A program made the translations under genes and the position numbers. A stretch of DNA of 64,000 bases from an uncultured Bacillales bacterium (GTDB lineage Bacteria; Bacillota_I; Bacilli_A; RF39; UBA660): contig CANOYR010000003.1 in NCBI GenBank assembly GCA_947571655.1, forward strand, positions 3,408-67,407. Direction: 5' to 3'. Below are positions 2,349 through 51,976 of this stretch, one piece after another. The notes under the pieces are model-generated. The model made no database searches. It was not told the DNA's origin and saw only the letters and a program-made list of their open reading frames with translations. Positions within the stretch are counted from its first letter, which is position 1. Each line of letters opens with the position of its first letter.

Positions 2349-5036
2349 ATGAAAAAGCAATTGTATGATAAAAGAGCATATATTGTAACTATATTATTAG
2401 TATTTGTAATCTTTCTCTTTCTTTTTATAGGTAAAGGGATTTTTCCATTTGGAAAAAATTCTTTGATTTGGGGAGATATGCACGATCAAATTACAGCTTT
2501 TTACTATCATTTTTATGATAGTTTTTATGGGAATAGTTCTTTATTGATTGATTTTACTACCAGTGGTGGAGTGAATTTTTTTGGAGTTCTTTGTTATTAT
2601 ATTTTAAGTCCTCTTAGCTTTCTTTTATTGCTTTTTCCAAGAGAAGATATTTATTTAGCGGTATCGATTATTGTCGCATTAAAAGTTTTAATTTCTAGTC
2701 TTACGTGCCTTTATTTTATTCGTTTTTATTTTAAAAAATTGCCAAGTTTTTTAAGTATTTTTTTAGCGATTTGTTATGCTTTTTCGGGATATAGTTTATC
2801 TATGTATCAAATTACTCCATGGATTGATATTGTGTATTTATTTCCACTATTAATGATAGGGTTTAAGAAGGTATTGGATTTACAAAAACCGACTTGGTAT
2901 ATTCTTATATTAACGTTATCCTTTATTTGTTGTTTTTATATTTCTGTGATGCTTATTTTCTTTCTTCTTTTATCAGCTTCTTTTTATCTTTTTATATATA
3001 AAGAAAAAGAAGAAAGGAAAAAGGGAATTTTGGCACTTGGAATTTCTACTATTTTGAGTTTACTTCTTTCTTTATTTGTTTTAGTTCCTTCTTATATGCA
3101 GATATCTATTTCTTCTAGACTTGGATTTCGTTTGGGTGAGCTTTTAAATTCTAGGGCAGGACCTTTAACAGATAAAATATCTTTCTTTATGTTTGGTGGA
3201 ATTGTTTATTTAGGAATTTTATTTTTATTAAAACATTTAAAAAAAGACTCTAAATTTTTTCTTTGGTATTTTTCTACTTGTCTAATTGTTGGAATTCCTG
3301 TTATTATTGAACCAATTAATAAACTTTGGCATTTTGGTTCTTATGCTTTTTTTCCTTATCGATTTGGTTTTATTATGATTTTTTTACTAATTATAGGGTC
3401 GTGTCAAGGTTATACATTAGAATTAGAGGTTAAGGATAAGAAAAAAAAGAAAAGGGAACATCCTTTTTTGATAATTTTCGTTACGTTAATTTCTAGTATT
3501 GTAATTTCTTTTTGTACTTATAATAACTATTATGATTTTCAAAGTGCACTTTCTAAATTAACGATTTCTACGGATCATTCTTTGTTGTGGTTTTTACTCA
3601 CTACAACACTTTTGGTATTTTTAACGTGTTATTTTATTTATCGATATACAAAATCTAATCGAACACTTTGTACTTGTTGTGTTGCAGTTATTACTTTGGT
3701 TCATATTTTAAATAATAGTTTTTTATATTTTGGTGTTGATTTTAATCAGGAAAAATTAATGAGTCAATATGAAAGTTTAACGGAATTATCGAAAACTTAT
3801 GAAGAAGGAAATTATTATCGTGTAAAAAATTTAAGTTCTAATTTTATGATGAATAGTGGGATGGTAATGAAATATCATACGTTAGATCATTTTACATCTT
3901 TAACAGACCGTAATAATTTACAAAGCTTAAAAAAGCTTGGATATTCTTCTATGTGGGTTAAGACTTTTTCAAAAGGAGGAACCTTGTTTAGTGATGCTAT
4001 TTTAGCTAATCGCTATATTTTAAGTAGATCTCCGATAGAAAGTCCTTATTACCAATTTGTTCAAAGTTATGGAAATTTAAAATTTTATGAGCATTTAAAA
4101 ACGCCTTCTTATGGTTATTTAATTGATAAAAATATCGATATTTTAGATGAAGAGAATTCTTTTACGATTCAAAATCAAATGTATCAGGCAATTAGAAAGA
4201 GTAAGGAAGATATTTTTAAAATTTATGATGATTGGCAATTAGATAATATTAAAAAAACAGAAAAAGATGAGAAAATTTCTTATCAAATTATCGATGAAGA
4301 TGCTTATAACTTTATAGAGCAAACAATTCCTATTCATCAAAAACAAGTTTTATATTTAGAAATATTAAAAGATTTAGATAATACTATTAATTCTGAAATT
4401 TATCAAAAATTTAATATTTATGTAAATGATCAATTATGGCAAAAAAATGCACTTACTGCTAATAATAATGGTGTCATTGATTTAGGAACTTTTGAACATG
4501 AGGATGTCGATATTAAAATTGAGCTATTAGGTGATATTGAAATTTCTAATTTGACCCTTGCTACGATGGATGTTTTGAAGTATGAAAGTTTTATTGAGGA
4601 AAATTATGTACCATTAAAAATTAAATATAATAAGAATAAAATTCAAATTGAAGTAACTTCAGAAAAAAACCAAATTTTATTTTTACCTATTTCTTATAAT
4701 GATGGGTATGAGAGTGTTGTAAATCAACAAAAGGTGTCAGTAGAAAAGGTATTTGGAAATTTTGTTGGAATTCCTTTAGAAAAGGGAGATAATAAGATTG
4801 AAATATCTTTTCTACCTCCAGGATTTAAAATATCGACTGCAATTAGTGTTTTTGCATTACTTGTTACAGTTCTTTTTCTTCATAAAAAGTGGTATTTTAA
4901 ATTGCTTGAGTCTTCAACTTTTCAAAAAGTTGCGAGTGTTTGTTATTACAGTATTTATTCACTCTTTATACTTTTTGCTTATGTTGGTTTGACGATTGTC
5001 TTTATTTTGTCACATTTTATCTATTTTCAAGTTTAA
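2349..5036 (+). CDS. YfhO-family polytopic membrane protein (putative glycosyltransferase of cell-envelope polymers)
   Basis: 895 aa with many TM helices at the N-terminus and a large C-terminal extracytoplasmic domain. The size and topology are typical of YfhO. Confidence 0.6.
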   Translation: MKKQLYDKRAYIVTILLVFVIFLFLFIGKGIFPFGKNSLIWGDMHDQITAFYYHFYDSFYGNSSLLIDFTTSGGVNFFGVLCYYILSPLSFLLLLFPREDIYLAVSIIVALKVLISSLTCLYFIRFYFKKLPSFLSIFLAICYAFSGYSLSMYQITPWIDIVYLFPLLMIGFKKVLDLQKPTWYILILTLSFICCFYISVMLIFFLLLSASFYLFIYKEKEERKKGILALGISTILSLLLSLFVLVPSYMQISISSRLGFRLGELLNSRAGPLTDKISFFMFGGIVYLGILFLLKHLKKDSKFFLWYFSTCLIVGIPVIIEPINKLWHFGSYAFFPYRFGFIMIFLLIIGSCQGYTLELEVKDKKKKKREHPFLIIFVTLISSIVISFCTYNNYYDFQSALSKLTISTDHSLLWFLLTTTLLVFLTCYFIYRYTKSNRTLCTCCVAVITLVHILNNSFLYFGVDFNQEKLMSQYESLTELSKTYEEGNYYRVKNLSSNFMMNSGMVMKYHTLDHFTSLTDRNNLQSLKKLGYSSMWVKTFSKGGTLFSDAILANRYILSRSPIESPYYQFVQSYGNLKFYEHLKTPSYGYLIDKNIDILDEENSFTIQNQMYQAIRKSKEDIFKIYDDWQLDNIKKTEKDEKISYQIIDEDAYNFIEQTIPIHQKQVLYLEILKDLDNTINSEIYQKFNIYVNDQLWQKNALTANNNGVIDLGTFEHEDVDIKIELLGDIEISNLTLATMDVLKYESFIEENYVPLKIKYNKNKIQIEVTSEKNQILFLPISYNDGYESVVNQQKVSVEKVFGNFVGIPLEKGDNKIEISFLPPGFKISTAISVFALLVTVLFLHKKWYFKLLESSTFQKVASVCYYSIYSLFILFAYVGLTIVFILSHFIYFQV

Positions 5037-5039
5037 TAT

Positions 5040-5231
5040 TGACAGATAAAAAAAGTATCTGTAAAATAAGTATTGTTAATGTGAAGATGGCCTTGGAAAA
5101 GTCGGAGCAATACAAAAAGAGAGATTCTTCTAGAATAAGTAGAGTGGAACCGCGGAATTGATTTTCGTCTCTACAGTTCTAGGAGTTTTTTTGTTTTTTG
5201 AGGAAGAAAATGTTTAAAAAAGGAGAAAAAG
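5040..5231 (+). promoter_or_regulatory. Promoter plus compact T-box leader (glycine) of glyQS
   Basis: The promoter is TTGACA (5040-5045), a 17-nt spacer, then TAAAAT. The T-box core is AGAGTGGAACCGCGG at 5141-5155, whose UGGA would pair with a U73 discriminator as in tRNA-Gly. A GGC is at 5088-5090 and a hairpin with U-run lies at 5165-5195. Confidence 0.5.
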
Positions 5232-6611
5232 ATGATGGAAAATAAAAAATTGACAATGGAAAAATTGGTGAATGTCTGTAAACAGTATGGATTTATTTTT
5301 CAGGGAAGTGAAATTTATGGAGGATTAGCAAATACTTGGGATTATGGTCCTTTGGGTGCAAGACTTAAAAATAATGTAAAAGATACATGGCGCAAACGAT
5401 TTATTCAAGAAAGACCAAATGCTTATGAAGTGGATGCTGCAATTTTAATGCATCCTAGGGTTTGGGAAGCCAGTGGTCATGTTGCTAGTTTTTCTGATCC
5501 ATTGATTGATTGTAAATCATGTAAGATGCGTCATCGAGCAGATAATTTGATTGATGATTTTGATAAGAATGCCCATGCAGATGGAATGACACAGGAAGAG
5601 ATGGTTTCCTATATTAAGGAACATCAAGTACCTTGTCCAGGATGTGGAAGTAGTGATTATACAGAAATTCGTCAGTTTAATTTGATGTTTGAAACTTATC
5701 GTGGAGTTACTGAGAGTAATAAGAATAAAATTTATTTACGACCAGAAAATGCACAAGGTGAGTATGTTAATTTTTTAAATGTACAGCGTTCTATGAGGTG
5801 TAAATTACCTTTTAGTATTGGTCAAATTGGAAAAGCTTTTAGAAATGAGATTACTCCAGGAAATTTTACTTTTCGCACTATTGAATTTGAACAAATGGAG
5901 TATCAAACTTTTTGTAAAGAGGGGACAGATAGTGAATTATACCGTTATTTTAAAGAGTATGCCAAAAAGTATTTTATGGATTTAGGTCTTCCAGAAGAGA
6001 AGTTGAGATTTCATGATCATGAAAAATTAGCACATTATGCAAAAGAGGCTTGTGATATTGAATATCAATTTAATTTTGGATGGGGAGAAATTAATGGAAC
6101 ACATAATCGTACAGATTATGATTTGGGACGTCATCAGGAGTATTCGAAGACTTCTCAGGAATATCTAGATTCTGAAACGAATGAAAAATATATTCCTTAT
6201 ATTATTGAATCTACAGTTGGATGTGATCGTGCTGTTTTAGCACTTTTGGATCATGCTTATGAAGAAGAGCAACTAGAAGATGGAACCACTCGTGAAGTTA
6301 TGCATTTTCATCCATTTTTAGCACCATATAAAGTAGCAGTACTTCCATTATTAAAAAGATATCATGCAGAAGGGGCAAGTAAGATATATACGCAATTTTC
6401 AAAAGAAATGATGGCAACTTATGATGAGAGTGGAAATATTGGAAAACGATATCGTAGACAAGATGTGATTGGAACTCCTTATTGTGTAACAATCGATGAC
6501 AATACGATTCATGATGGGACAGTTACAATTCGTGATAGAGATAGTATGGAACAAATTACTTTATCTGTGGAGGATGCAATTGTTTATATTAAGGATAAGA
6601 TAAAATTTTAA
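5232..6611 (+). CDS. glyQS: Glycine--tRNA ligase (single-chain, class II)
   Basis: The N-terminus YGFIFQGSEIYGGLANTWDYGPLG and the C-terminal anticodon-binding domain are present. Confidence 0.9.
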   Translation: MMENKKLTMEKLVNVCKQYGFIFQGSEIYGGLANTWDYGPLGARLKNNVKDTWRKRFIQERPNAYEVDAAILMHPRVWEASGHVASFSDPLIDCKSCKMRHRADNLIDDFDKNAHADGMTQEEMVSYIKEHQVPCPGCGSSDYTEIRQFNLMFETYRGVTESNKNKIYLRPENAQGEYVNFLNVQRSMRCKLPFSIGQIGKAFRNEITPGNFTFRTIEFEQMEYQTFCKEGTDSELYRYFKEYAKKYFMDLGLPEEKLRFHDHEKLAHYAKEACDIEYQFNFGWGEINGTHNRTDYDLGRHQEYSKTSQEYLDSETNEKYIPYIIESTVGCDRAVLALLDHAYEEEQLEDGTTREVMHFHPFLAPYKVAVLPLLKRYHAEGASKIYTQFSKEMMATYDESGNIGKRYRRQDVIGTPYCVTIDDNTIHDGTVTIRDRDSMEQITLSVEDAIVYIKDKIKF

Positions 6612-6666: not shown

Positions 6667-7446
6667 TTAAAAGTTAATTTCTTCAAGATGTGCAATTATA
6701 ATTTGGTAAATCCAATCTGGTCGTTCTAGGTAGGGAAAATGTTCTAATCCTTTTAAAACGATAAGTTCGGAGTTTGGTATTTCTTTTTCCATTTTTTTTG
6801 CATCTTTAAGAGGAGTAGAAGAATCCCTTTCTCCCCAAATTAGTAGTACACGTGCTTTTATTTTTTTTAAATAATAAGAAAGGTCCTCGTTTACGACATT
6901 TTGAAAGGTCATTCTCATATTTTCTGGAAGCGCCTGATAGTCAGGGGATGCAAATTTTTGGAATAACCATTCTTGATAAATTTTTCTTTTCTTTTTTGGA
7001 AGGAGTTTTCCAATTTTTTTGAGAAATTGATACCATCTTTTTCGAAAAAAACTTCGGAATGTCTTTTTTGGTCTGATTCCTGCACTATCCATAAAAATAA
7101 AATTAGAATAGTCATAATGATAGTATCCGCTTAGAAGAATTAAAAGACGACCACCAAAAGAGTGTCCAATAAAAATAGAGTCCTTAAGACCTAGATCAGT
7201 AATCCAAGAATGAATCATGTTGGCATAATCAAAAATGGTCATTGAGTGACGAGGAAATTTTGTTTTTCCAAATCCAGGATAATCTAAGATATAGACTGTA
7301 TAGTTTAAAGATAGGGCAGAAATTAAAGAATCAAAAGTCGCTCTGGTATCTCCCCAGCCAGGAAGAATTACGATACTTTTTTTATGTTCTCCATATTTTT
7401 TATAATATAATGAGATATCATTGTAAGTATAAAACATGATAATCAC
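6667..7446 (-). CDS. Alpha/beta-hydrolase fold protein
   Basis: Nucleophile elbow GHSFGG and an HGW/PGWG N-terminal motif in a 259-aa protein. Confidence 0.7.
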   Translation of the reverse strand: MIIMFYTYNDISLYYKKYGEHKKSIVILPGWGDTRATFDSLISALSLNYTVYILDYPGFGKTKFPRHSMTIFDYANMIHSWITDLGLKDSIFIGHSFGGRLLILLSGYYHYDYSNFIFMDSAGIRPKKTFRSFFRKRWYQFLKKIGKLLPKKKRKIYQEWLFQKFASPDYQALPENMRMTFQNVVNEDLSYYLKKIKARVLLIWGERDSSTPLKDAKKMEKEIPNSELIVLKGLEHFPYLERPDWIYQIIIAHLEEINF

Positions 7447-7552
7447 CTAATATAGTGTATGAAAATGGGAAATGATTGTTTCCAAAAAGGACAAGTTAAA
7501 AAAATTTTTAAAAATAGTATGAAAATTGCAAAAGTGTGATATACTAAAAGTG

Positions 7553-7733
7553 TCTAAGAAATGCGAAACAGTCACATATAAAACCGACTAATATGACGAT
7601 ACGGGAGTCTTGATCAGTAATCTGTGTTGAATGCCTTTCCTTTTGGTAAAGGAATCCTAAGGGTTACGTATGGACACCCACCTGTAAAAATGCAGGTTTT
7701 ATCGCCGACTGAACCGCTTTCTTGGACTTTTTA
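7553..7733 (+). ncRNA. ssrS: Candidate 6S RNA (SsrS-like)
   Basis: An extended -10 (TGATATACT, 7537-7545) is followed by a ~180-nt noncoding segment. Its 5-prime end (AAGAAAGCG..CAGTC, 7557-7575) pairs with its 3-prime end (GACTG..CGCTTTCTT, 7706-7722) around a bulge, and a U-run follows. It lies directly upstream of a tcdA/yrvM-like gene, as B. subtilis 6S-1 does. Confidence 0.4.
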
Positions 7734-7735
7734 TT

Positions 7736-8443
7736 TTGAAAAATAGAAATGGAGTGATCTGGATGCTTGATCGTTTAGAATTATTAATAAGTCCAGAAAA
7801 TCTAGAAAAGATAAAAAAGCTTCGTGTACTGGTCGTTGGACTTGGTGGAGTTGGGGGATATACAGTAGAATCTTTAGTTCGTTCAGGAGTTGAAGAAATA
7901 ATTTTAGTAGATTATGATACTGTAAGTATTAGTAATAAAAATCGACAAATTATCGCAACTGATGAGGTCATAGGAATGAAAAAAGTAGAGGCTTTTAAAA
8001 GACGAATTGAATTGATTTCAAGTACTTGTCATGTGATACCAGTGGATTTGTTTTTAAGTAGGGAAAATATTTCTTTTTTAGATTCTTATTCTATTGATTA
8101 TATCGTAGATGCTTGTGATAGTGTATTTACTAAGCAATCATTAATTACTTACAGTTTGGAACGTAAAATTCCGTTGATTTCTTGTATGGGAACAGGAAAT
8201 CGCCTAGATCCTAGTCAATTAGAAATTACGGATTTAAGGAGTACCTGTTATGATCCTTTGGCTAGAAAAATGAGAAGTTTTATCACTAAGAATAAAATTA
8301 AAGAAAAAGTAACAGTTGTTTGTAGTAGGGAACACCCAATAAAAACAGGGAGTAAAACAATTGGATCTTGTAGTTTTGTTCCAAGTGTGGCAGGGCTATT
8401 AATTACTAGCTACATTATTCGACAAATAATCAAAGAAAATTAG
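7736..8443 (+). CDS. tcdA: tRNA threonylcarbamoyladenosine dehydratase / ThiF-MoeB family E1-like protein
   Basis: Rossmann motif VVGLGGVGG. An alternative start at ATG 7763 follows the RBS aaatggagtg. Confidence 0.7.
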   Translation: MKNRNGVIWMLDRLELLISPENLEKIKKLRVLVVGLGGVGGYTVESLVRSGVEEIILVDYDTVSISNKNRQIIATDEVIGMKKVEAFKRRIELISSTCHVIPVDLFLSRENISFLDSYSIDYIVDACDSVFTKQSLITYSLERKIPLISCMGTGNRLDPSQLEITDLRSTCYDPLARKMRSFITKNKIKEKVTVVCSREHPIKTGSKTIGSCSFVPSVAGLLITSYIIRQIIKEN

Positions 8444-8503
8444 GATATTCTGATAATAGAAGATTCTAATTTTTATATGAGAAATAATGAGGAGGGCTTA
8501 TTT

Positions 8504-9550
8504 ATGAAAAAGGGAATTCTTTTATTCGCTTTTTTTATTTTTTTTCAAAGTATGAATGTAATGGCTTTAGAAAGCAATTCTAAATGGAGAACATTGCAGC
8601 CAGAAGTGAACAAGAGTAGTAATCATATTCTAGAAAAGGAAATGGAAGTAAAGAAAAAGACAACGAAGGATGGTCTCCAATATAAAGAGTATACTATTAC
8701 TTATATCATTCCTGAAGATTATCAGGAAAATGAAATTCTTTTTGTTCCTATTCAGTATATGCAACAGGTTGTTTCTAGCGATGAGAAAGATCAATTTCAA
8801 ATTATTATTAAAAATCATACAGATAAGATTTTTCAATACAAAAATCAATCTTTAGTAATTGCAACAGAAAATTTGGATATGTATAGTGATGATGAATTAG
8901 GTCCATGGGTAGGAGAAGCGATTGGTTTTAATCAGGTAAAAATTAGAGAGGGTTTAGGATTTTATCGGACAATAAATAGTGCAATTTTGGACCTTTATCA
9001 AGAGATAAATCAAATTACAATCACAGAGTCTAGTTTGGAGGAGAAATTACAAGAAAAAGGCTATCATGGAATCTCAGAATTAAATCGTTATTATTTAGAC
9101 TTTTTTAATACAAAATATCATTTGACTGCTACTCAATTGGAAGATTTATCAGATTCTGCAATTTTGGATTTATTAAGTGGGAAATTAATTGAGGGAATGA
9201 AAGAGGAAAATAAGGAAATCTTAGAACTTGCTTATAATTATTATTATAATCAATTGTTTTTTATAGGATTTGATTTAAGTCAGAACCTTCATGATTTTAG
9301 TGTTGGTTCTTATATGAGAAAGGAAGCATCTTATGAATTTTTGAATGATTTATTTCAAGAACAGTTTACTACTATTTTTCCTAATCAGGAGGTTTCTATT
9401 GAAATGCCAAGTTTTTCTGTTAAGAAGATACCTAAAGAATCTATTTATGAAAATTATTATAGTGGAATTTATGTAGAGTTTACTCTTGAAGCAAATAATG
9501 AACAAGAGGGTATGATATATTCTATTCAAGATTCTCATTGGTACTGCTAA
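8504..9550 (+). CDS. Secreted hypothetical protein (signal peptide)
   Basis: The MKKGILLFAFFIFFQSMNVMALE signal peptide is followed by a D/E-rich extracytoplasmic domain with no recognised motif. The start is taken at the internal ATG after the RBS gaggagggc. Confidence 0.5.
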   Translation: MKKGILLFAFFIFFQSMNVMALESNSKWRTLQPEVNKSSNHILEKEMEVKKKTTKDGLQYKEYTITYIIPEDYQENEILFVPIQYMQQVVSSDEKDQFQIIIKNHTDKIFQYKNQSLVIATENLDMYSDDELGPWVGEAIGFNQVKIREGLGFYRTINSAILDLYQEINQITITESSLEEKLQEKGYHGISELNRYYLDFFNTKYHLTATQLEDLSDSAILDLLSGKLIEGMKEENKEILELAYNYYYNQLFFIGFDLSQNLHDFSVGSYMRKEASYEFLNDLFQEQFTTIFPNQEVSIEMPSFSVKKIPKESIYENYYSGIYVEFTLEANNEQEGMIYSIQDSHWYC

Positions 9551-28099: not shown

Positions 28100-28315
28100 G
28101 GAAAGTATATCTGAAAAGCGAAGAAAAAGAGGAGTATGATAAGAGATTCTTTTTTAGAGAACTAGGGGTAGGTGAAACCTAGTAAAGAACCTTATAGGAA
28201 GCTACTTTGGAGTGAAATAATCCGGAGAAATCCGTTATCCAAAATAAGATCTAACAAGGATGGTACCGTGATTATTCGCTCCTGTTTAGGTCTTTTAATT
28301 TATGTAAAAGGAGAA
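28100..28315 (+). promoter_or_regulatory. T-box leader (alanine specifier) preceding the dNMP-kinase-like ORF and alaS
   Basis: AGAGA box at ~28158, a stem-loop CTAGGggtaggtgaaaCCTAG, a GCU-A candidate specifier at ~28204, and an AGTGA element. The T-box core AAGGATGGTACCGTG (28258-28272) carries UGGU, which would pair with the A73 discriminator of tRNA-Ala. A stem and U-run follow. Confidence 0.45.
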
Positions 28316-46125: not shown

Positions 46126-46269
46126 AAGGTGAATAGGAAGCTATGGATGATAGTTTCCTTTTTAATTTAGAGAATAGGTTTTGTTAAAACTTATGAAATA
46201 AAAAAGTTTTCTTGAATTTTTGTTAAAAGTGTTGTAAACTAATCATAGATTCTTAGAAAGAAGAGTAAC

Positions 46270-46460
46270 GAAATTTCTTTTTTTAGAGAGGATATGGTTG
46301 GTGAAAATATCTATTAGAAATGAGTGAAGACACTTTCTATTAAAAGAAACGTAATTCTGCGTTAAAGAAGATAAGCATAAGTAATTATGGAAATAAGGTG
46401 GCACCACGAATTGATATTCGTCCTTTGTAGTGTTACCTTTTTCTTTTTAATCAAGAAAGG
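46270..46460 (+). promoter_or_regulatory. T-box leader of the hisS-aspS operon
   Basis: AGAGA at 46286, GGTGAAA and AGTGAAGACAC elements, and a GACAC specifier region at ~46329-46333. The T-box core AATAAGGTGGCACCACG is at 46391-46407. A terminator stem AAGGTGGCAC/GTGTTACCTT is followed by a U-run. Confidence 0.6.
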
Positions 46461-51806: not shown

Positions 51807-51883
51807 GGACCCTTAGCTCAGTTGGTTAGAGCATTCGGCTCATAACCGAACGGTCGATGGTTCGAGTCCATCAGGGTCCACCA
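51807..51883 (+). tRNA. tRNA-Met (anticodon CAT; could alternatively be tRNA-Ile2/k2C)
   Basis: 77-nt cloverleaf with 7-bp acceptor GGACCCT/AGGGTCC, D-arm GCTC-AGTTGGTTA-GAGC, anticodon loop CTCATAA, T-arm GGTTCGAGTCC, and encoded CCA. Confidence 0.85.
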
Positions 51884-51891
51884 CAAAATAT

Positions 51892-51976
51892 GCGGGTATG
51901 GCGGAATTGGCAGACGCACTAGACTTAGGATCTAGCGCCGCAAGGCTTGCAGGTTCAACTCCTGTTACCCGCACCA
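51892..51976 (+). tRNA. tRNA-Leu (anticodon TAG), class II with long variable arm
   Basis: GCGGGTATGGCGGAATTGGCAGACGC...anticodon loop CTTAGGA...variable arm...GGTTCAACTCCTGTTACCCGCACCA. Confidence 0.85.

What the first reader, a model, noticed from the sequence alone, without database searches (positions are those of the whole stretch)
7537..7735. Unannotated ~180-nt structured RNA with long terminal closing stem upstream of tcdA/yrvM homologue: candidate 6S RNA
The 290-bp divergent intergenic region has no ORF. An extended -10 (TGATATACT) precedes a segment whose 5-prime end (AAGAAA-GCG-aaa-CAGTC) pairs with its 3-prime end (GACTG-aac-CGC-TTTCTT) around a small internal loop, followed by a U-run. 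A long closing stem from the termini is the hallmark of 6S RNA. In B. subtilis, 6S-1 (bsrA) sits immediately upstream of yrvM, which encodes the same ThiF-like TcdA family found at 7736 here. The internal sequence shows no match to SRP, tmRNA, RNase P, T-box or common riboswitch cores.
Basis: partly seen in the sequence, partly recalled or inferred. Interest (0 to 1): 0.6.

Follow-up and report, generated by a model that had tools for sequence, protein, structure and literature searches.

The report
Ordinary 6S RNA gene upstream of tcdA

Summary
Confirmed, and ordinary. Rfam's 6S model (RF00013) matches window 7548-7732 (+) over its full length at 62.7 bits (gathering score 46.4, E 5e-10 for the 64-kb window). 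The RNA folds far better than shuffles (z -4.1). A conserved extended -10 promoter (TGaTATACT, 7537-7545) sits at a fixed distance upstream, and a T-run follows the closing stem.

Relatives carry the same RNA upstream of tcdA on the same strand: 15 of 15 close metagenome loci, and 21 of 80 reference-genome tcdA loci, including a Bacillus locus with the order aspS-6S-yrvM. On 52 distinct sequences the 6S structure is 85.7% paired (36-52% when partners are slid), and 37 of 47 pairs show compensatory changes.

The 6S-1 working parts are recognisable:
- helix P2;
- an open 17-nt 5' bubble strand holding a conserved pRNA template (AAAACCGACUAA);
- a 3' bubble hairpin;
- a bubble-collapse helix.

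No ORF is conserved inside it. Only 30 nt separate its end from the tcdA start codon (7763, not 7736), so tcdA is probably read through from the 6S promoter. This is a new member of a well-known family. Expression, polymerase binding and pRNA synthesis remain untested.

The parts
7537..7545 (+). Extended -10 promoter element, TG-a-TATACT. The -35 is poor. The predicted transcription start is about G7550-G7552.
   Evidence: Read from the sequence. TGnTATA(A/C)T sits at the same distance from the RNA start in all 16 distinct relatives outside Bacillus that were compared. The start site is inferred from the usual spacing after the -10, not measured.
7548..7732 (+). 6S RNA gene, with bounds as matched by the Rfam model. 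The likely transcript runs from about 7550/7552 to 7732-7737, roughly 181-188 nt.
   Evidence: RF00013 at 62.7 bits against a gathering score of 46.4, E 5.1e-10, model 1-187 of 187. Clade model R1 scores 187.5 bits and finds only this one hit in the window.
7549..7566 (+). Closing stem, 5' strand. It pairs with 7714-7730.
   Evidence: Pairs from the covariance-model alignment. 16 of 17 pairs show changes on both sides across 52 sequences (helix 1).
7714..7730 (+). Closing stem, 3' strand.
7569..7573 (+). Inner extension of the closing stem: CAGUC pairs with GACUG at 7707-7711. This helix is not part of the Rfam consensus.
   Evidence: Present in the minimum-free-energy fold. An equivalent helix appears in most of the 17 independently folded homologues. 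All 5 pairs show changes on both sides, but the alignment is gappy here and only 63.6% of cells pair (helix 2).
7580..7585 (+). Helix P2 (the downstream duplex), 5' strand AAAACC. It pairs with GGUUUU at 7695-7700 and can extend to 8 bp (7578-7585 with 7695-7702).
   Evidence: 92.9% of cells pair, but the sequence is nearly invariant, so covariation is scarce (helix 2).
7586..7602 (+). 5' strand of the central bubble, 17 nt. The predicted pRNA start is U7589, the position homologous to B. subtilis C40, or alternatively C7588.
   Evidence: Unpaired in the covariance-model structure. ATATAAAACCGACTAA is almost invariant in 16 of 17 sequences. The start site is inferred by homology to the 6S-1 pRNA GUUCGGUCAAAACU with start at C40 (PMC10578484, PMC8876501).
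7603..7679 (+). Apical (internal) stem with its terminal hairpin: stem 7634-7638 with 7648-7652, terminal loop 7639-7647. It includes the conserved GGGAG (7603-7607) and the CCC of ACACCCACCUG (ACACCC = 7674-7679); the rest of that motif, ACCUG, lies in the 3' bubble strand.
   Evidence: In helices 3-6, 19 of 24 pairs show changes on both sides.
7680..7697 (+). 3' strand of the central bubble (7680-7694, 15 nt). It can form a hairpin, ACCUGUA (7680-7686) with UGCAGGU (7691-7697). The full 7-bp form takes over three bases of the P2 3' strand.
   Evidence: 92.9% of cells pair, with little covariation (helix 7).
7597..7601 (+). Helix resembling the central bubble collapse helix: CGAUA pairs with UAUCG at 7700-7704. 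It competes with P2.
   Evidence: 83.5% of cells pair and 3 of 5 pairs show changes on both sides (helix 3). The analogy to the 6S-1 collapse helix comes from PMC8876501.
7728..7737 (+). T-run (TTTTT-A-TTTT) immediately after the closing stem. It is the likely 3' end and a leaky termination point.
   Evidence: Read from the sequence. A T-run follows the closing stem in most relatives. The function is inferred.
7763..8443 (+). Downstream tcdA/yrvM-like gene of the ThiF family (226 aa, GGAG at 7751-7754). It is probably co-transcribed with the RNA.
   Evidence: Pfam ThiF at 125 bits. The best NCBIfam match is TcdA at 145 bits, below the equivalog cut-off of 304. A homologue with 71% identity is named tRNA threonylcarbamoyladenosine dehydratase by its source. 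The 226-aa gene call comes from identical contigs.

Best explanation
This is the 6S RNA gene (ssrS/bsrA type, closest to Bacillus 6S-1) of an uncultured low-GC gut Bacilli bacterium.

Proposed mechanism:
1. Transcription starts from its own extended -10 sigma-A promoter at about G7550-G7552. The RNA ends at the U-run after the closing stem (7728-7737), giving roughly 185 nt.
2. The RNA folds into a rod: closing stem, helix P2, a large central bubble (17 nt on the 5' side, 15 nt on the 3' side) and an apical stem. This shape mimics an open promoter.
3. By family mechanism, it occupies the active-site cleft of the housekeeping sigma-A RNA polymerase holoenzyme and holds it inactive when nutrients are scarce.
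4. When NTPs return, the polymerase uses the 5' bubble strand as a template. It starts at U7589 (or C7588) and reads into AAAACC of P2, making a short product RNA, predicted as 5'-(A)GUCGGUUUUAUAU.
5. The product RNA displaces the P2 3' strand. That strand re-pairs into the extended 3' bubble hairpin (7680-7686 with 7691-7697) and a collapse helix (7597-7601 with 7700-7704). The bubble closes and the polymerase is released.
6. Because only 30 nt separate the U-run from the tcdA start codon, read-through from the 6S promoter probably supplies the tcdA mRNA.

Shown here: family membership, the structure and its covariation, conservation of the promoter and the template, and synteny. Inferred by homology: polymerase binding, pRNA synthesis, the refolding pathway, the transcript ends and co-transcription.
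For: - Family match: RF00013 matches full length above its gathering score (62.7 against 46.4 bits).
- Stability: z -4.13 against shuffles.
- Orthologues: the same RNA lies upstream of tcdA on the same strand in 15 of 15 close metagenome loci. It does so in 17 of 80 genome tcdA loci by Rfam and 21 of 80 by the clade model.
- Search anchored on the RNA rather than tcdA: of 29 metagenome loci that match the clade profile, 26 have tcdA downstream on the same strand. 18 of these are within 46 nt. Two of the remaining three are cut by a contig end.
- Covariation, 17 sequences aligned with MAFFT: the Rfam structure is 84.1% paired against 38-54% when slid, with 29 of 47 pairs changed on both sides and 0 of 500 shuffles as high.
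- Covariation, 52 distinct sequences: 85.7% paired against 36-52% when slid, with 37 of 47 pairs and 453 cells changed on both sides (shuffles 146 +/- 10), and 0 of 500 shuffles as high.
- Strand: many G-U pairs (for example UG in 26 sequences at columns 8/244) fit only the + strand.
- Promoter: the extended -10 is conserved at a fixed distance in all 16 distinct non-Bacillus relatives compared.
- Template: the 5' bubble sequence AUAUAAAACCGACUAA is nearly invariant. It carries two pRNA hallmarks described for Firmicutes, GG at pRNA positions 5/6 and an A just 3' of the start in the template (PMC8414754).
- Two states: the canonical conformer with an open 5' bubble strand (-53.1 kcal/mol) and the collapsed minimum-free-energy conformer (-55.3 kcal/mol) are nearly equal in energy. 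This matches the two-state 6S-1 model (PMC8876501).
- Precedent for read-through: B. subtilis bsrA is flanked by aspS and yrvM, and 6S-1 extended by flanking mRNA is found on sigma-A polymerase (PMC11077062).
- Bacillus locus fetched here: L075 shows aspS, 6S, then a TcdA-like gene, and contains the exact 6S-1 pRNA template AGUUUUGACCGAAC.
Against: - There are no expression data. Transcript ends, abundance, polymerase binding and pRNAs are all untested.
- The minimum-free-energy fold of the free RNA shows a collapsed bubble, not an open one. The open form is 2.2 kcal/mol higher.
- P2 and the bubble strands are almost invariant, so covariation neither supports nor contradicts them (helix 2).
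- The predicted pRNA lacks the AA at positions 9/10 seen in lactic acid bacteria and B. subtilis. Its 14-mer duplex is weaker (-17 to -18 against -20.3 kcal/mol).
- The initiating nucleotide (A or G) cannot be decided from sequence.
- The simple scans report no terminator and no + strand promoter here.
- The covariance-model alignment A3 was fitted to the model structure, which biases its pair counts upward. The MAFFT alignment A2 gives the same picture.
Confidence: 0.93

Rival explanations
1. A cis-acting structured 5' leader of tcdA, such as an attenuator or riboswitch, rather than a free-standing trans-acting RNA.
For: The RNA ends only 30 nt before the tcdA start codon, with no room for a separate promoter. 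Spacers of 14-36 nt are common in relatives. A helix followed by a U-run upstream of a gene looks like an attenuator.
Against: It matches the 6S covariance model end to end and no cis-regulatory family. In at least 13 loci another gene of 0.5-3 kb lies between the RNA and tcdA. In L091/L093 a canonical terminator and a promoter-like site separate the two. The most conserved part is the bubble and template region, not a ligand-pocket-like core. Co-transcription is compatible with 6S function: E. coli ssrS-ygfA and B. subtilis bsrA-yrvM read-through.
Confidence: 0.03
2. A decayed or non-functional relic related to 6S, or a 6S-2-type paralogue with different behaviour while the canonical 6S lies elsewhere in the genome.
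For: Only 64 kb of the genome is visible, so a second copy elsewhere cannot be excluded. If pRNA synthesis starts at U7589 it begins with A, as for B. subtilis 6S-2 (PMC3753640 abstract).
Against: Strong purifying and compensatory evolution across 52 distinct sequences argues against a relic. The position next to the yrvM homologue is that of 6S-1. There is no second hit in the window, either with the permissive Rfam scan or with the clade model.
Confidence: 0.03
3. A small protein gene, using the 40-aa ORF at 7624-7746 (+) or the 42-aa ORF at 7447-7575 (-).
For: Both ORFs exist mechanically.
Against: The longest open stretch changes strand and frame from one relative to the next. Substitutions preserve base pairs rather than codons.
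Confidence: 0.005

Closest known systems
Bacillus subtilis 6S-1 RNA (bsrA)
   Same: - Rfam family RF00013, and a length of roughly 185-200 nt.
- A rod made of closing stem, P2, central bubble and apical stem.
- A small hairpin in the 3' bubble strand, and a competing collapse helix between the distal 5' bubble strand and the region of the P2 3' strand.
- A pRNA template containing ...ACCGA..., which gives GG at pRNA positions 5/6 and has an A just 3' of the start.
- A position immediately upstream of the yrvM/tcdA homologue on the same strand.
   Different: - The upstream neighbour is a divergent alpha/beta hydrolase with glyQS beyond it, not aspS.
- The promoter's -10 ends about 6 nt before the closing stem, so no counterpart of the 11-nt 5' leader of pre-6S-1 is expected.
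- The P2 5' strand is AAAACC, not UUUUGACC, so the predicted pRNA is (A)GUCGGUUUUAUAU rather than GUUCGGUCAAAACU.
- The homologous start position is a U, which would mean initiation with A, instead of C40.
- The full 3' bubble hairpin overlaps the P2 3' strand, as in E. coli.
- The spacer to tcdA is only 30 nt.
Escherichia coli 6S RNA (ssrS), co-transcribed with ygfA
   Same: Open-promoter mimic of the same Rfam family. It is co-transcribed with a downstream protein gene. After pRNA synthesis, an extended hairpin forms from the 3' bubble strand and the released P2 3' strand.
   Different: - Different phylum and a different downstream gene (ygfA/fau rather than tcdA).
- The pRNA starts at U44, with GG at positions 4/5.
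- No collapse helix is described for E. coli.
- Sequence similarity is confined to the family consensus.
6S RNAs of Lactobacillales (PMC8414754)
   Same: Firmicute 6S RNAs of the 6S-1 type, with a conserved pRNA motif and strong local synteny.
   Different: In lactic acid bacteria the conserved neighbours are rarA upstream and uspA downstream. Here, and in Bacillus, the conserved neighbour is tcdA/yrvM downstream. The AA at pRNA positions 9/10 is absent here.

Membership tests
6S / SsrS RNA (Rfam RF00013) | Covariance-model score at or above the curated gathering score, over the full model | tested here: met
   62.7 bits against 46.4, model positions 1-187 of 187, E 5.1e-10 in the 64-kb window.
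6S / SsrS RNA (Rfam RF00013) | A rod-like RNA of about 180-200 nt with a long closing stem formed by its two ends | tested here: met
   185 nt. The closing stem pairs 7549-7566 with 7714-7730. 16 of 17 of its pairs show compensatory changes. All 17 homologues folded independently form a terminal closing stem, and most fold as a rod.
6S / SsrS RNA (Rfam RF00013) | A large central bubble flanked by helices, mimicking an open promoter | tested here: met
   The covariance-model structure has bubble strands of 17 nt (7586-7602) and 15 nt (7680-7694) between P2 and the apical stem. A conformer with P2 formed and the 5' bubble strand open lies 2.2 kcal/mol above the minimum-free-energy fold. Whether the bubble is open in the cell cannot be told from sequence.
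6S / SsrS RNA (Rfam RF00013) | Conserved sequence flanking the bubble (GGGAG... and ...CACCCACCUG) | tested here: met
   Both blocks match the Rfam consensus letters. CCCACCT is invariant across the 17 aligned sequences.
6S / SsrS RNA (Rfam RF00013) | Secondary structure maintained by compensatory substitutions among homologues | tested here: met
   84.1% and 85.7% of cells paired against 36-54% in slid controls. 29 of 47 and 37 of 47 pairs changed on both sides. 0 of 500 shuffles reach the observed values.
6S / SsrS RNA (Rfam RF00013) | Binds the housekeeping sigma (sigma-70 / sigma-A) RNA polymerase holoenzyme and accumulates to high levels | not testable with these tools
   Needs RNA-seq or a northern blot, plus polymerase co-immunoprecipitation.
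6S / SsrS RNA (Rfam RF00013) | Serves as the template for short product RNAs that trigger release | not testable with these tools
   Only the template can be examined. AAAACCGACUAA is conserved. GG at positions 5/6 and the adjacent A are present, but AA at positions 9/10 is absent.
Bacillus-type 6S-1 (bsrA) subgroup | Lies immediately upstream of the yrvM/tcdA homologue on the same strand | tested here: met
   In the window the RNA ends at 7732 and tcdA starts at ATG 7763. The same arrangement is seen in L075 (Bacillus rubiinfantis: aspS, 6S, TcdA-like gene). The literature agrees.
Bacillus-type 6S-1 (bsrA) subgroup | aspS upstream, and a 5' leader removed by processing | tested here: not met
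   The upstream gene is a divergent alpha/beta hydrolase (6667-7446, minus strand) with glyQS before it. The -10 ends 2 nt before the model start, leaving no room for an 11-nt leader.
Bacillus-type 6S-1 (bsrA) subgroup | A hairpin in the 3' bubble strand, and a collapse helix that competes with P2 | tested here: met
   The hairpin pairs 7680-7686 with 7691-7697, and the collapse-like helix pairs 7597-7601 with 7700-7704. They are 92.9% and 83.5% paired among homologues, and 3 of 5 collapse-helix pairs show changes on both sides. The feature definitions come from PMC8876501.
Bacillus-type 6S-1 (bsrA) subgroup | pRNA initiates with G, at C40 | tested here: inconclusive
   The homologous template position is U7589, which would give an A start. 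C7588, one nucleotide 5', would give a G start. Sequence alone cannot decide between them.

The most novel reading that the evidence does not exclude
In this clade of gut Bacilli, 6S RNA and tcdA may form an obligatory two-gene operon. Spacers of 14-36 nt leave no room for a separate tcdA promoter. On this reading the 6S closing stem plus U-run acts as a leaky terminator or processing site. Synthesis of the ct6A tRNA-modification enzyme would then be set by the same promoter, and by the same RNA fold, that make the polymerase-sequestering RNA. The linkage is conserved from Bacillus to these uncultured lineages. That could reflect a functional coupling between growth-phase control of transcription and tRNA modification, rather than inherited gene order alone.
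Probability: 0.2. Interest if true: 0.35.

Novelty: new member of a known kind. Interest (0 to 1): 0.12.

Why it matters
It matters little beyond correct annotation. The window carries a canonical 6S RNA gene that any Rfam-based pipeline would call.

Three modest points are useful:
1. The 6S-tcdA/yrvM linkage known from B. subtilis extends to uncultured low-GC gut Bacilli and is very tight there, which points to co-transcription.
2. The Rfam model misses some members of this clade that a clade-specific model finds easily, so 6S is probably under-annotated in such MAGs.
3. The clade has its own nearly invariant pRNA template. This gives a concrete sequence, (A)GUCGGUUUUAUAU, to look for in small-RNA data.

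Tried and rejected
- The promoter and terminator consensus scan found nothing on the + strand. I set this aside because the tool needs a good -35 and a short hairpin. The alignment of relatives shows a conserved extended -10 and a T-run instead.
- The hairpin inside the 5' bubble strand in the minimum-free-energy fold (7575-7579 with 7591-7595) was considered as a conserved element. I rejected it because relatives that form a similar hairpin use a different register (L087 against the window), and the inner bases never vary.
- Small-protein reading: rejected.
- Organism name: the exact-protein cluster look-up returned no names. The closest named reference locus is Candidatus Scybalousia intestinigallinarum, at 58% TcdA identity. 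The source is therefore described only as an uncultured gut Bacilli MAG.
- The 16-mer metagenome scan returned mostly chance matches. 91 of 120 loci had no full-length match to the 6S profile and were discarded.
- A constrained fold with both bubble strands forced open gave an odd apical fold at -46.3 kcal/mol. A probable cause, from my knowledge of ViennaRNA rather than any test here, is its 30-nt limit on interior loops. I did not use that result.
- Second 6S copy in the window: none with the permissive Rfam scan or with the clade model.
- My first two calls used wrong tcdA coordinates (7764 instead of 7763) and failed.

Full report
**Observation.**
- TG-a-TATACT lies at 7537-7545.
- Two complementary end segments follow: GUCUAAGAAA / UUUCUUGGAC, GCG / CGC and CAGUC / GACUG, pairing across small internal loops.
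- A T-run lies at 7728-7737.

The minimum-free-energy fold of 7548-7732 forms exactly these helices. Its energy is -55.3 kcal/mol, against -38.1 +/- 4.2 for 200 dinucleotide-preserving shuffles (z -4.13, none as good). The opposite strand folds less well (-50.1 kcal/mol).

**Identity.** Rfam's 6S model RF00013 matches 7548-7732 on the + strand over the whole model (positions 1-187). The score is 62.7 bits against a gathering score of 46.4, with E 5.1e-10 for the 64-kb window and 3.6e-12 locally. A permissive scan of the region gives no other credible family. Neither a permissive Rfam scan nor my clade model finds a second 6S copy in the window.

Projecting the model's consensus structure onto the sequence gives these parts:
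- closing stem, 7549-7566 with 7714-7730;
- helix P2, AAAACC 7580-7585 with GGUUUU 7695-7700;
- 5' bubble strand of 17 nt, 7586-7602;
- apical stem, 7603-7679;
- 3' bubble strand of 15 nt, 7680-7694.

The conserved family blocks GGGAG and ACACCCACCUG are present.

**Surroundings.**
- Upstream, on the opposite strand, lies an alpha/beta hydrolase (6667-7446), with a glyQS-type glycyl-tRNA synthetase before it.
- Downstream lies a ThiF-family gene whose best NCBIfam match is TcdA (145 bits, below the equivalog cut-off). One source names a homologue with 71% identity tRNA threonylcarbamoyladenosine dehydratase.
- The start of this gene is most likely ATG 7763, with GGAG at 7751-7754. Gene calls on identical contigs give 226 aa.
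- The closest named reference locus is Candidatus Scybalousia intestinigallinarum, at 58% TcdA identity. The organism is an uncultured low-GC gut Bacilli lineage.

**Relatives.** All 15 close metagenome loci that encode TcdA at 57-100% identity carry an Rfam 6S hit directly upstream on the same strand (50.8-65.8 bits).

Of 80 reference-genome tcdA loci, 17 have such a hit by Rfam and 21 by the clade-specific model R1. Every hit is upstream of tcdA and on the same strand. One of them, Bacillus rubiinfantis L075, has aspS, then 6S (84.9 bits), then a TcdA-like gene. It also contains the exact template of the B. subtilis 6S-1 pRNA.

All of these loci were selected through tcdA. To remove that selection, I scanned metagenomes for the conserved 16-mer ATATAAAACCGACTAA.
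- 29 of 120 matching loci are full-length matches to a 6S profile.
- 26 of the 29 have tcdA downstream on the same strand: 18 within 46 nt and 8 at 0.86-3.1 kb.
- 2 are cut by a contig end, and 1 has no tcdA within the 790 nt available.

**Structure evidence.** RNAalifold on 17 sequences aligned with MAFFT finds compensatory changes in 19 of 27 predicted pairs.

| Alignment | Cells paired | Paired when partners slid | Pairs changed on both sides | Shuffles reaching observed |
|---|---|---|---|---|
| A2, 17 sequences, MAFFT, Rfam structure | 84.1% | 38-54% | 29 of 47 | 0 of 500 |
| A3, 52 distinct sequences, fitted to the model | 85.7% | 36-52% | 37 of 47 | 0 of 500 |

In the larger alignment, 453 cells carry changes on both sides, against 146 +/- 10 in shuffles. 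That alignment is fitted to the model structure and so leans towards it, but the unfitted MAFFT alignment gives the same result. Frequent G-U pairs fit only the + strand.

Each of the 17 homologues, folded on its own, forms a terminal closing stem, and most fold as a rod. It recurs in most of these folds and shows changes on both sides in all 5 pairs, although the alignment is gappy there.

**Promoter and ends.** TGnTATA(A/C)T is conserved at the same distance from the RNA start in all 16 distinct non-Bacillus relatives compared. The -35 is weak. Standard spacing puts the start at about G7550-G7552, which leaves no 5' leader, unlike the 11-nt leader of B. subtilis pre-6S-1. A T-run follows the closing stem in most relatives.

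The gap to the tcdA start codon is 30 nt here and 14-36 nt in many relatives. This leaves no room for a separate promoter, so I infer that tcdA is expressed by read-through. There is precedent in B. subtilis, where 6S-1 extended by aspS and yrvM mRNA is found on sigma-A polymerase (PMC11077062), and in E. coli ssrS-ygfA (PMC1874619). In L091/L093 a canonical terminator and a promoter-like site separate the two genes, so the coupling is not universal.

**Mechanism, by homology.** In B. subtilis 6S-1, pRNA synthesis starts at C40 in the 5' bubble strand and gives GUUCGGUCAAAACU. It unwinds P2, and a collapse helix forms between the distal 5' bubble strand and the region of the P2 3' strand. A small hairpin in the 3' bubble strand already exists in the free RNA (PMC8876501; PMC10578484).

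Here, anchoring on the shared ACCGA places the homologous start at U7589. The predicted pRNA is AGUCGGUUUUAUAU, with GG at positions 5/6 and A7590 just 3' of the start in the template. These are two of the three hallmarks described for Firmicutes in PMC8414754. The third, AA at positions 9/10, is absent. A start at C7588 would give GUCGGUUUUAUAUG.

The window RNA can form two structures that compete with P2:
- a 7-bp hairpin in the 3' bubble strand (7680-7686 with 7691-7697), which takes three bases from the P2 3' strand;
- a 5-bp helix, CGAUA 7597-7601 with UAUCG 7700-7704. It is 83.5% paired among homologues, and 3 of 5 pairs show changes on both sides.

The canonical conformer, with the 5' bubble strand open and P2 extended to 8 bp, is -53.1 kcal/mol. 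The collapsed minimum-free-energy conformer is -55.3 kcal/mol. With the pRNA-covered strand blocked, the fold adopts the extended 7-bp hairpin at -52.8 kcal/mol. This is the two-state behaviour expected of a 6S RNA, but it rests on prediction only.

**Rivals.**
- A cis-acting leader of tcdA is unlikely. The RNA matches 6S and no cis-regulatory family. In at least 13 loci it is separated from tcdA by another gene.
- A small protein is excluded, because open frames are not conserved.
- A decayed relic is excluded by the compensatory evolution.
- A second, 6S-2-like copy elsewhere in the genome cannot be excluded from a 64-kb window.

**Verdict.** This is a new member of a well-known family, in the position known for B. 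subtilis 6S-1. Interest is low. The only mildly new points are:
- the tight and probably co-transcribed 6S-tcdA pair across uncultured gut Bacilli;
- the clade-specific pRNA template;
- the fact that Rfam's model falls below threshold for some clade members that a clade model detects at 69-146 bits.

Noticed in passing
window 5033-5175 (+): A weak T-box-like match (36.5 bits, gathering score 93, E 1.7e-4) lies just upstream of the glyQS-type glycyl-tRNA synthetase gene at 5232-6611. It may be a short glyQS-type T-box leader that the full model scores poorly.
   Followed up: no
window 28112-28286 and 46249-46428 (+); 51807-51880 and 51892-51973 (+): Two T-box leaders above the gathering score (96.6 and 93.1 bits) and two adjacent tRNA genes.
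   Followed up: no
window 8477-9550 (+): A 357-aa ORF with no Pfam match and a hydrophobic N-terminus lies between tcdA and lexA. This slot varies among close relatives: 348 aa in L001/L002, 238 aa in L095, and absent in L085, L087 and L089.
   Followed up: partly
L031 1445-1629; L024 1885-2057; L068 2316-2480; L023 1838-2000: The clade-specific covariance model finds full-length 6S RNAs upstream of tcdA (69-146 bits) where Rfam RF00013 stayed below its gathering score. 6S is therefore probably under-annotated in these low-GC gut Bacilli MAGs.
   Followed up: partly
L091 and L093, 1914-2000: In this lineage a canonical hairpin plus T-run terminator follows the 6S gene, and a TTGACA ... TATAAA-like site precedes tcdA (87-nt gap). 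The two genes look transcriptionally uncoupled here, unlike in the window.
   Followed up: no
L010 1594-2499; L007 1371-2423: In some relatives a different gene sits between 6S and tcdA: a protein of about 270-300 aa in L010, L029 and L014, and a 350-aa membrane protein in L007 that starts only about 14 nt after the 6S T-run. This suggests that read-through from 6S into whatever gene lies downstream is tolerated.
   Followed up: partly
L006, L008, L023 (record titles): Several reference MAGs titled 'uncultured Muribaculaceae' carry a TcdA 45-52% identical to the window's, and two of them (L006, L023) also carry this clade's 6S RNA upstream of it. The taxonomic labels of these bins look doubtful.
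   Followed up: no
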